14,865 nucleotides of DNA from a virus. Taxonomy: Duplodnaviria > Heunggongvirae > Uroviricota > Caudoviricetes. The DNA lies in IMG/VR virus record IMGVR_UViG_2531839179_000012; one strand, 5' to 3'. Shown here in pieces: positions 6,055 through 7,316 of the stretch. The stretch's first letter is position 1; every line of letters begins with the position of its first letter. A program made the translations under genes and the position numbers. The notes under the pieces were generated by a model. It made no database searches. It was given only the letters and a program-made list of their open reading frames with translations, and was not told where the DNA came from.

Positions 6055-6970
6055 GGCTGTGTCCCTTAATCATCTGAGCTATAGTAACTGTCTGTTTACA
6101 CAACATATTGAACTATGGCTCGCTACGACCTTCCCGATGAGGCATGGACCATCATCAAGCCCCTGTTACCTCCTGAACCCGCCACACCACGGGCCGGACG
6201 CCCATGGGCTGAGCACCGTAAAATCATCAATGGCATGTTCTGGGTGTTATGTTCCGGTGCACCATGGCGCGATTTACCCGAACGATATGGGTCATGGAAA
6301 ACTGTTTATAACCGCTTTAACCGATGGTCAAAGTCAGGCGTGATTAATATTATTTTCAACAGGTTGCTTTCGCTACTTGATGCAAACGGCTTTATTGACT
6401 GGTCTGCCACCGCGCTGGATGGCAGTAATATCCGGGCGCTGAAATGTGCCGCCGGTGCTCAAAAAAACATCCCGATATCGACGGAGATAATGGGCTGGGT
6501 CGCTCTCGCGGCGGTTTTGGCACCAAAATCCATCTGGCAACAGACGGAAGTGGCCTCCCGTTAAATATCGTGCTAAGCCCCGGACAAGCTCATGAAAGCC
6601 AGTTCGCGCAACGACTTCTGGACGGGATTGGCGTTCAGCGTCAGAACGGCAGCATGAAACGCCGTGGACATGCGGTACTGGCTGATAAAGCGTATTCAGG
6701 GCGCGCATTGCGCAACGAGCTGAAAAATAACGGTATAAAGGCAGTAATCCCCCGAAAGTCAAATGAGAAAATGGCATCGGATGGACGTGCACAGCTTGAT
6801 CGTGATGCGTACTGCAATCGTAATGTCGTTGAACGGTGCTTTGGGCGGCTGAAAGAATATCGCCGCATCGCCACGCGTTACGACAAAACGGCGAGAAATT
6901 ACCTGGCGATGGTGAAACTGGGCTGCATCCGACTCTTTTATCAACGCTTACGTAATTAAGGGACACAGCC
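6055..6970 (+). mobile_element. IS5-family insertion sequence (IS427/IS1031-like), 916 bp, apparently intact
   Basis: Perfect 16-bp terminal inverted repeats GGCTGTGTCCCTTAAT (6055-6070, and reverse-complemented at 6955-6970), flanked by TA on each side (6053-6054 and 6971-6972). Two overlapping transposase ORFs with a slippery heptamer. Confidence 0.8.
6115..6959 (+). CDS. IS5-family transposase, OrfA (6115-6564) with OrfB in the -1 frame (to 6959); a fusion is predicted by -1 frameshifting at A AAA AAC (6462-6468)
   Basis: OrfA MARYDLPDEAWTIIKPLLPPE...WRDLPERYGSWKTVYNRFNRW is typical of IS427-group N-termini. The -1 frame continues ...IHLATDGSG...LADKAYSG...NVVERCFGRLKEYRRIATRYDK (DDE motifs). 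A run of seven A residues (6461-6467) sits in the overlap. Confidence 0.7.
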
Positions 6971-7263
6971 TAGCGTTCGCTGAGAAGTTGTTGGTAAGCC
7001 TTAAAGGATGCGAACTGCATTCTACCTTCGGCATTGATTCCAATGCCTTCGCTTGTGCACCAGGCGATGAACTCGGCTGTATCCGCTTCAACTTTAATAA
7101 CTCGTTGCCCGCTTCTTTCGACACGCTTAATCAATTTTTCAGCGTCGTGTTTCCACTCGGTGTAACTGTCGGAGAGCACATCAGCATCAGTAAAAATATT
7201 TTTGAGCTCATGATACTGAATCGCATCGCGAAACCAGAATAAACCAACGGCCTGAACTTTCAT
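6970..7263 (-). CDS. Hypothetical protein (97 aa), encoded opposite to the rightward early operon (moron-like)
   Basis: Strong ribosome-binding site AGGAGG 6 nt upstream of the ATG at 7263. Its stop codon TAG (6970-6972) abuts the IS5-family end; the pre-insertion sequence would have ended ...SER-TAA followed by the hairpin at 6019-6045. No family recognised. Confidence 0.55.
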   Translation of the reverse strand: MKVQAVGLFWFRDAIQYHELKNIFTDADVLSDSYTEWKHDAEKLIKRVERSGQRVIKVEADTAEFIAWCTSEGIGINAEGRMQFASFKAYQQLLSER

Positions 7264-7316
7264 GTCGAACCTCCTTTGGTTCTTTTGTTTATAGGGATCA
7301 AAAGGATAACTGAAGG

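What the first reader, a model, noticed from the sequence alone, without database searches (positions are those of the whole stretch)
6970..7316. Uncharacterised 97-aa gene on the opposite strand with its own strong ribosome-binding site and terminator
An antisense-oriented gene between the cro-like gene and the first Rha gene, with an AGGAGG ribosome-binding site and a dedicated terminator, is classic moron architecture. The sequence (MKVQAVGLFWFRDAIQYHELKNIF...) matches nothing I can name. It could be a lysogen-expressed factor.
Basis: inference. Interest (0 to 1): 0.45.

Follow-up and report, generated by a model that had tools for sequence, protein, structure and literature searches.

The report
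Uncharacterised repressor-strand prophage gene, IS-clipped
The 97-codon reverse-strand gene is real and belongs to a large, unnamed family of small proteins that temperate phages often carry next to their lysis/lysogeny switch; its function is still unknown, and in this copy a mobile element has landed in its stop codon and cut it off from its terminator.

Summary
The ORF (6970-7263, minus strand, 97 aa) and its AGGAGG site (7270-7275, 6 nt before ATG) are confirmed. The gene is real. It matches PHROG 4753 (unknown function) over its full length. Substitutions in relatives fall mainly on its third codon positions. A profile search finds 1,129 clusters of relatives. AlphaFold gives pLDDT 95.5.

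The "dedicated terminator" is not next to the gene here. A 916-bp IS5-family element (6055-6970) has inserted into the stop codon (TAA became TAG; TA duplicated). The native hairpin now lies about 920 bp away, at 6021-6045. No consensus promoter was found.

In phages at 28-100% identity the gene sits after cro, convergent with it, and on the repressor strand. In several it is divergent from a 186-type cII. Soil relatives often lie in ordinary chromosomal contexts.

My best reading is a lysogeny-side accessory protein that acts by binding a partner. The function is inferred, not shown. Interest is modest.

The parts
6970..7263 (-). ORF97 coding sequence (97 aa, 11.3 kDa, pI 5.65, no hydrophobic segment). 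The stop codon TAG is formed from TA (6971-6972) plus the terminal base of the IS (6970).
7270..7275 (-). Shine-Dalgarno AGGAGG, 6 nt upstream of the ATG
7264..7382 (.). 119-bp divergent intergenic region between ORF97 and the Rha/antirepressor-like gene. It must hold both promoters. No consensus sigma-70 site was found on the ORF97 strand.
7315..7331 (-). Conserved motif TTGGTGCCGAACC(A/T)TCC. It is kept in all enterobacterial relatives while the flanks diverge. It is complementary to the SD-to-AUG stretch (possible anti-SD leader stem). It could instead be the -35 (TTGGTG, 7326-7331) and spacer of a weak promoter with -10 TATCCT (7303-7308).
   Evidence: the promoter reading is my own inspection
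6055..6970 (+). IS5-family (ISSfl7-like) insertion sequence, 916 bp, with two overlapping transposase ORFs (DUF4096; DDE_Tnp_1). It is inserted in the stop codon of ORF97.
6053..6054 (.). Left copy of the TA target-site duplication (right copy at 6971-6972)
6021..6045 (-). Native terminator-like hairpin of ORF97 (TGGGGCAAT..GTTGCCCCA followed by TCGTATTTAA). It lies 6 nt after the stop in intact copies and is now 925 bp away.
5992..6054 (+). First 21 codons (MSEKITIKYDGATISIAPITL) of a plus-strand ORF. In intact copies this ORF runs 110 codons antisense through ORF97. It is split here by the IS and is most likely a shadow ORF.
5772..5981 (+). cro-like gene (phrog_4749), convergent with ORF97
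5004..5735 (-). cI-like repressor (HTH_3 + Peptidase_S24), on the same strand as ORF97. The annotated start in L001 gives 218 aa.
7383..8090 (+). Rha-family / Ant-like regulator gene, divergent from ORF97 (GTG start as annotated in L001)

Best explanation
ORF97 is a genuine, independently translated accessory gene of a lambdoid prophage immunity region. It points leftward, on the same strand as the cI-like repressor. It is convergent with cro and antisense to the rightward early operon. It encodes an 11-kDa soluble alpha/beta protein (strand-helix-helix-strand-helix-helix). The protein belongs to a large unnamed family and has the fold of the non-DNA-binding C-terminal part of SO3848, an Aca2/YdiL-class helix-turn-helix regulator, but it lacks the helix-turn-helix. 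Shown here: the gene is real, its ribosome site is real, the family exists, the fold match exists, and the position is conserved. Also shown: an ISSfl7-like element inserted at a TA inside the stop codon. That insertion left the protein intact but separated the gene from its hairpin, and separated cro from the downstream early genes. Inferred, not shown: the gene is transcribed on its own or from an establishment-type leftward promoter while the lytic operon is off. Also inferred: the protein works by binding a partner protein (or a small ligand) as a modulator on the lysogeny side of the switch, not as an enzyme or a DNA-binding protein.
Against: No promoter reaching consensus criteria was found, and no expression data exist. 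The hairpin has a poor T-run in several relatives, so it may terminate only partly. The region of SO3848 that aligns was deduced from topology; it was not read from a residue alignment. There is no sequence-level link to Aca2/YdiL (hhalign probability 0.2%; no Pfam hit). Relatives in the soil metagenome clade often sit among ordinary chromosomal genes, so the family is not specific to the switch. No conserved partner gene was found. The near-invariant D26, C69 and R81 could equally mark a ligand or catalytic site.
Confidence: 0.5

Rival explanations
1. ORF97 is the first cistron of a CII-activated establishment transcript (pRE/pE type). Such a transcript would start next to the cII-like gene, run leftward through ORF97 and antisense through cro, and continue into cI. 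The protein would then be made only when the phage commits to lysogeny.
For: In L032, L036, L038, L039 and L043 the gene lies between a 186-type CII gene (Phage_CP76) and cro, pointing towards cro and cI. In lambda and 186 the CII-dependent leftward promoter sits at exactly this place (established knowledge). The hairpin after the gene has a weak T-run. A motif is conserved upstream of the gene.
Against: In this window and its closest relatives the neighbouring gene is Rha/Ant-like, not cII. No CII-type direct repeat was recognised. The hairpin is stable (-16.6 to -20 kcal/mol). Here the IS would block any read-through.
Confidence: 0.2
2. ORF97 is a prophage-encoded protective factor (superinfection exclusion or anti-phage defence) expressed in lysogens, like other genes on the repressor strand of immunity regions.
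For: It is on the same strand as cI, has the opposite orientation to the lytic operon, and is patchily distributed. A TumE/TumA-like toxin-antitoxin pair lies 1 kb away, also on the minus strand.
Against: There is no PADLOC match. It is a single small soluble domain with no enzymatic or membrane feature. No partner gene was found. Many relatives are outside phages.
Confidence: 0.15
3. The family is a general bacterial small ligand-binding or adaptor protein. The phage copies are passengers with no role in the switch.
For: Chromosomal, non-phage contexts are common in the metagenome clade. D26, W37, G52, W68-C69 and R81 are near-invariant, which is compatible with a binding pocket. Some prophages carry disrupted copies.
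Against: The position and orientation next to cro recur across phages whose proteins share only about 30% identity.
Confidence: 0.12
4. The real gene is on the plus strand: a 110-codon ORF that starts 11 nt after cro in intact copies and is co-directional with cro and rha. ORF97 would then be its shadow. Alternatively both strands are coding.
For: The antisense frame is open across the gene in all enterobacterial copies and has fewer stops than a crude codon-usage expectation (8 observed against 36 expected in 49 GC-rich relatives; 43 open against 24 expected). Its first ~20 codons, which lie outside ORF97, show I/V and third-position changes. The annotators of phage EKP1 called this strand.
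Against: The most variable positions are the first codon positions of the plus-strand frame. The plus-strand ORFs match no Pfam or PHROG family, whereas ORF97 matches PHROG 4753. ORF97 folds with pLDDT 95.5 and matches a solved structure. PGAP calls ORF97. The conserved stretch outside ORF97 is also the hairpin. The codon-usage background was taken from unvetted long ORFs.
Confidence: 0.05

Closest known systems
SO3848 of Shewanella oneidensis (PDB 2OX6), C-terminal part; an Aca2/YdiL-class regulator
   Different: ORF97 has no N-terminal helix-turn-helix and no long connecting helix. Identity is 12%. No sequence or profile similarity was detected to SO3848 or YdiL. The function of SO3848 is itself unknown.
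Anti-CRISPR-associated repressor Aca2 / E. coli YdiL (DUF1870)
   Same: They are structural relatives of SO3848. Their small C-terminal domain (strand, two helices, strand) mediates dimerisation by packing against the HTH domain of the partner subunit (PMC8434428). This suggests a protein-binding role for the ORF97 fold.
Phage morons and repressor-strand accessory genes of lambdoid prophages (for example lambda rexAB)
   Same: A small gene in opposite orientation to the lytic operon, on the repressor strand, with its own ribosome site and a hairpin after the stop. It is variably present.
   Different: No promoter was demonstrated and no phenotype is known. The family keeps one position next to cro across distant phages, which is unlike a typical sporadic moron.
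PHROG 4753
   Same: Full-length match, E 1.5e-49.
   Different: The PHROG has no annotation. It names the family but explains nothing.

Membership tests
PHROG 4753 (phage protein family, function unknown) | Full-length match to the family profile | tested here: met
   E 1.5e-49, residues 1-97 on profile positions 1-97
Moron (autonomous accessory gene in a prophage) | Orientation or position independent of the flanking operons | tested here: met
   A lone minus-strand gene between plus-strand cro and rha. The same lone orientation is seen in many relatives.
Moron (autonomous accessory gene in a prophage) | Own promoter | tested here: inconclusive
   No consensus sigma-70 site on the minus strand. 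Only a weak candidate, TTGGTG-17-TATCCT, inside a conserved motif (and my inspection).
Moron (autonomous accessory gene in a prophage) | Own terminator directly after the gene | tested here: not met
   In this window the stop codon abuts the IS and no terminator-like site follows for about 420 nt. In intact copies a hairpin follows 6 nt after the stop, but its T-run is weak and is not conserved.
Moron (autonomous accessory gene in a prophage) | Dispensable, patchy distribution | tested here: met
   Present in 75 of 5,426 complete E. coli genomes. There is a nonsense codon at position 36 in L031 and a truncated copy in L020.
Moron (autonomous accessory gene in a prophage) | Expressed from the repressed prophage | not testable with these tools
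   Needs RNA-seq or 5'-RACE of a lysogen.
Aca2 / YdiL / SO3848 class of HTH regulators | [quoted passage not shown] | tested here: not met
   The model starts with a beta-strand at residue 5. No HTH family was found in Pfam. The longer family members carry tandem copies or miscalled starts, not an HTH.
Aca2 / YdiL / SO3848 class of HTH regulators | C-terminal domain fold (parallel two-stranded sheet with packing helices) | tested here: met
Aca2 / YdiL / SO3848 class of HTH regulators | Detectable sequence homology (DUF1870 or profile match) | tested here: not met
   No Pfam hit. hhalign against YdiL gives probability 0.2%. The PDB sequence searches do not list 2ox6, 1s4k or Aca2.
Type II toxin-antitoxin pair | Conserved adjacent partner gene in one operon | tested here: not met
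   There is no co-directional neighbour in the window. The upstream ORFs in relatives are either unrelated or look non-coding.
Known anti-phage defence systems (PADLOC) | Match to a defence-system protein model | tested here: not met
   0 families at E<=1.

The most novel reading that the evidence does not exclude
ORF97-family proteins could be the detached C-terminal module of an Aca2/SO3848-type regulator. In this reading the module docks in trans onto the small Cro-type HTH protein encoded next to it (or onto another switch regulator). The two separate genes, facing each other, would then form a split two-piece regulator, with ORF97 made from the lysogeny-side strand to tune or neutralise Cro. 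The conserved leader that pairs with the Shine-Dalgarno and AUG would restrict its translation to one class of transcripts.
Probability: 0.07. Interest if true: 0.7.

Novelty: new member of a known kind. Interest (0 to 1): 0.33.

Why it matters
The exact protein is found on at least 999 public contigs of E. coli, Shigella and Salmonella, and it is always labelled hypothetical. The wider family spans more than a thousand 50%-identity clusters and has no Pfam entry. The gene sits at the most regulated spot of temperate phages, facing cro on the repressor strand. If it modulates the lysis/lysogeny decision or protects the lysogen, it would be a common, overlooked component of lambdoid switches. 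The fold link to SO3848 would then give that orphan structure its first biological context. If it is only a passenger, the result is ordinary. The IS insertion also shows that this prophage is decaying, because the rightward early operon is interrupted.

Tried and rejected
1. Pfam, NCBIfam and PADLOC scans of ORF97 and of 81 relatives gave nothing significant.
2. PDB sequence searches with two profiles gave only chance-level hits.
3. Foldseek against BFVD found two uncharacterised phage proteins only. The AFDB library was not available.
4. I looked for HTH-fused relatives among the longer family members. They are tandem repeats of the domain with coiled-coil linkers, or miscalled starts.
5. 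I looked for a conserved partner gene. The 16-locus upstream "ORF" cluster translates to Arg-rich nonsense, and the 77-79-aa upstream genes in L037-L039 have no family.
6. Context enrichment in 11 long metagenome loci gave a mixture of phage and ordinary chromosomal genes. Naive ORF calling in GC-rich DNA was too noisy for strand statistics.
7. Covariation in the leader stem is not significant. Most pairs never vary and there is one compensatory change.
8. Literature searches for the protein accession, the PHROG number and genes "between cro and cII" found nothing relevant.
9. The search for related loci with the diverse alignments failed for lack of a conserved stretch. The genome-contig scan returned a single locus.
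10. I rejected the reading that ORF97 is a shadow of the plus-strand ORF.

Full report
**1. The observation**

AGGAGG lies at 7270-7275 on that strand, 6 nt before the ATG. It is kept as (A/G)GGAG in relatives whose flanks have diverged.

The gene lies between a cro-like gene (5772-5981, phrog_4749) and a Rha-family / Ant-like gene. The true start of that gene, by the RefSeq annotation of an intact copy, is the GTG at 7383.

It is not a terminator but the right end of an insertion sequence.

**2. The IS insertion**

I compared the window with an uninterrupted copy in E. coli CFSAN029787 (locus L001). A 916-bp element occupies window 6055-6970.
- It has terminal inverted repeats GGCTGTGTCCC....
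- It carries two overlapping transposase ORFs (DUF4096 and DDE_Tnp_1).
- It is 99.9% identical to copies annotated as IS5-family / ISSfl7-like.

The target TA is duplicated (6053-6054 and 6971-6972). In L001 the gene ends CGC TAA. Here it ends CGC TA + G, where the G is the complement of the last base of the IS, which gives TAG. The protein is therefore unchanged (100% identical).

The terminator-like hairpin follows the stop after 6 nt in L001 (TGGGGCAAT-CGAAATT-GTTGCCCCA, then TCGTATTTAA; -16.6 kcal/mol, z -3.0). It is now at 6021-6045, on the other side of the IS. No terminator-like site follows the gene for about 420 nt.

None of the 5,426 complete E. coli genomes has this junction. One IMG/VR contig does (L006). 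The insertion also separates cro from the downstream early genes, so this prophage is probably crippled. A second IS (IS3 family) lies at 1836-3311.

**3. Is it a gene?**

Yes, for five reasons.
- It matches PHROG 4753 over its full length (E 1.5e-49).
- Against relatives with 77-81% protein identity, substitutions fall at codon positions 1/2/3 as 17/7/53, 16/7/43, 18/8/44 and 15/7/45. This is the signature of purifying selection in this frame.
- An exhaustive profile search finds 1,129 representatives of 50%-identity clusters at E<=0.001. Nearly all are 90-115 aa.
- With an 81-sequence alignment AlphaFold2 gives pLDDT 95.5 and pTM 0.85, and all five models score above 93.
- PGAP annotates it as WP_000867913.1.

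The exact sequence is on at least 999 public contigs of E. coli, Shigella and Salmonella, always as "hypothetical protein".

**4. The opposite strand**

In intact copies a plus-strand ORF starts 11 nt after cro (MSEKITIKYDGATISIAPITL...). It runs 110 codons antisense through ORF97. In L032-L036 the frame is open for 150-200 codons. The annotators of phage EKP1 called that strand.

Across relatives this frame has fewer stops than a crude codon-usage expectation. In 49 GC-rich relatives there are 8 stops against 36 expected, and 43 frames are open against 24 expected. The first ~20 codons lie outside ORF97 and show I/V and third-position changes.

Several points argue against a second gene.
- Its first codon positions are the most variable positions in the overlap.
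- It matches no Pfam or PHROG family in three versions.
- The conserved stretch outside ORF97 coincides with the hairpin.
- My background codon usage came from unvetted long ORFs.

I treat it as a shadow ORF, with a small residual chance of dual coding. In this window the IS cuts it after codon 21.

**5. What the protein looks like**

It is 11.3 kDa, pI 5.65, with no hydrophobic segment. The predicted secondary structure is strand 5-10, helix 14-23, a short turn, helix 34-50, strand 54-59, helix 62-72, helix 78-96.

Near-invariant residues across 81 diverse members are W10, D26 (fully invariant), W37, G52, W68, C69 and R81.

No Pfam, NCBIfam or PADLOC family matches, and no PDB sequence matches.

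SO3848 is a structural homologue of the anti-CRISPR-associated repressor Aca2 and of YdiL. It has an N-terminal helix-turn-helix and a long connecting helix. These are followed by a C-terminal domain in which beta1, alpha5, an extra helix, alpha6 and beta2 are followed by two additional helices (PMC8434428). That is the element order of ORF97, which begins directly with the first strand.

I infer that ORF97 corresponds to the SO3848 C-terminal part without the DNA-binding half. This is a topological inference, because the tools gave no residue ranges.

There is no sequence-level link. hhalign against YdiL gives 0.2% probability. The longer family members are tandem copies or miscalled starts, not HTH fusions. 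In Aca2 the C-terminal domain makes the dimer by packing against the HTH domain of the other subunit. That is why I favour a partner-binding role.

**6. Where the family sits**

In E. coli prophages the ORF97-Rha pair is 94-100% conserved next to unrelated cI/cro modules. The shared DNA extends at least 95 nt past the stop, into the 3' end of cro.

In relatives of about 80% identity (L032, L036) the divergent neighbour is a 186-type CII (Phage_CP76). The downstream neighbours there are a P22_Cro/YdaS-type cro and an S24 repressor.

In relatives of about 30% identity the gene again lies just after cro, convergent with it, on the repressor strand. It usually lies before a cII-like or replication gene. 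These relatives come from a Rhodoferax contig, two uncultured phages, Burkholderia phage Bcep176 and phage EKP1.

At least 17 non-redundant loci show ORF97 followed by an opposite-strand cro and a same-strand cI-like gene within 700 nt.

This is the place where lambda and 186 carry their CII-dependent leftward establishment promoter (established knowledge). An ORF97 transcript could therefore be part of, or mimic, that antisense transcript.

The family is not confined to phages, however. In 11 long soil-metagenome loci of one clade the neighbours were a mixture. Some were phage or satellite genes (VapE, integrase, terminase, portal, capsid). Others were ordinary chromosomal genes (oxidoreductases, transporters, GGDEF/EAL, LysR). 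No conserved partner gene emerged.

**7. Expression signals**

No sigma-70-like site passes the scan on the ORF97 strand.

A 17-nt motif, TTGGTGCCGAACC(A/T)TCC (window 7315-7331), is conserved in all enterobacterial relatives while the sequence around it diverges. There are two readings.

- The minimum-energy fold is -22.4 kcal/mol, z -3.5, in the window and -34.6, z -4.2, in L034.
- The same pairing appears in L005 and, weakly, in L036.
- L032 takes an alternative pairing.

Covariation does not support or refute this reading, because most pairs never vary.

In the second reading TTGGTG is a -35 element, 17 nt from TATCCT. That makes a weak promoter, whose transcripts would lack the pairing partner.

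The motif could also serve the divergent gene. This remains unresolved.

**8. Verdict**

The moron-like reading is partly supported.

The gene is a real member of a large, unnamed family. Its fold is that of the non-DNA-binding part of an orphan Aca2-class regulator, and it has a notably stable position facing cro.

My best guess is a lysogeny-side modulator that acts through protein binding. Only the anatomy is shown; the function is inferred. Defence, establishment-transcript and passenger readings remain open.

The finding is of modest interest. It would rise sharply only if a switch-related partner or phenotype were found.

Noticed in passing
window 6055-6970 (TA duplications at 6053-6054 and 6971-6972): A 916-bp IS5-family (ISSfl7-like) element is inserted exactly in the stop codon of ORF97. 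It changes TAA to TAG, splits the cro-to-rha early operon, and displaces the hairpin. This junction is absent from all 5,426 complete E. coli genomes but present in IMG/VR contig L006.
   Followed up: yes
window 5992-6054 and 6971-7242 (+); L001 6293-6625: A plus-strand ORF of 110 codons (150-200 in L032-L036) runs fully antisense to ORF97. It stays open in nearly all relatives, with about 4-fold fewer stops than a crude expectation. Its first ~20 codons look conserved at the protein level, but it matches no Pfam or PHROG family.
   Followed up: partly
window 7315-7331 with 7259-7277 (minus strand): A conserved motif upstream of ORF97 is complementary to its Shine-Dalgarno and start codon (predicted leader stem, z about -3.5 to -4.2). 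Covariation is uninformative, and the motif could instead be a -35 element.
   Followed up: partly
window 7267-7282 (+): On the plus strand the ORF97 ribosome-site region forms a small terminator-like hairpin (GAACCTCCTTTGGTTC followed by TTTTGTTTAT). It lies just upstream of rha and could attenuate rightward transcription.
   Followed up: no
window 8308-8956 (-): A TumE-family toxin (8669-8956) and an HVO_A0114/winged-helix partner (8308-8763) form a toxin-antitoxin-like pair on the minus strand. The pair is embedded antisense in the early region and is conserved in several related prophages.
   Followed up: no
window 1836-3311 (-): There is a second insertion sequence (IS3 family, orfA 107 aa + orfB 383 aa) in the prophage. 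An IS3-family element is also annotated upstream of the repressor gene in CFSAN029787.
   Followed up: no
L031 4001-4294; L020 4001-4294: Some prophages carry disrupted copies of ORF97. L031 has a nonsense codon at position 36. In L020 only the C-terminal 54 codons remain open.
   Followed up: partly
L005, L007, L008, L010 and others, 4295-4390: ORF97 (99-100% identical) and the following 95 nt adjoin cI/cro modules that are unrelated to those of the window. A mosaic recombination junction must therefore lie inside the 3' end of cro.
   Followed up: partly
proteins P0019 (506 aa), P0038 (319 aa), P0025 (206 aa): A few family members carry two or three tandem copies of the ORF97 domain, joined by coiled-coil-like linkers.
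   Followed up: no
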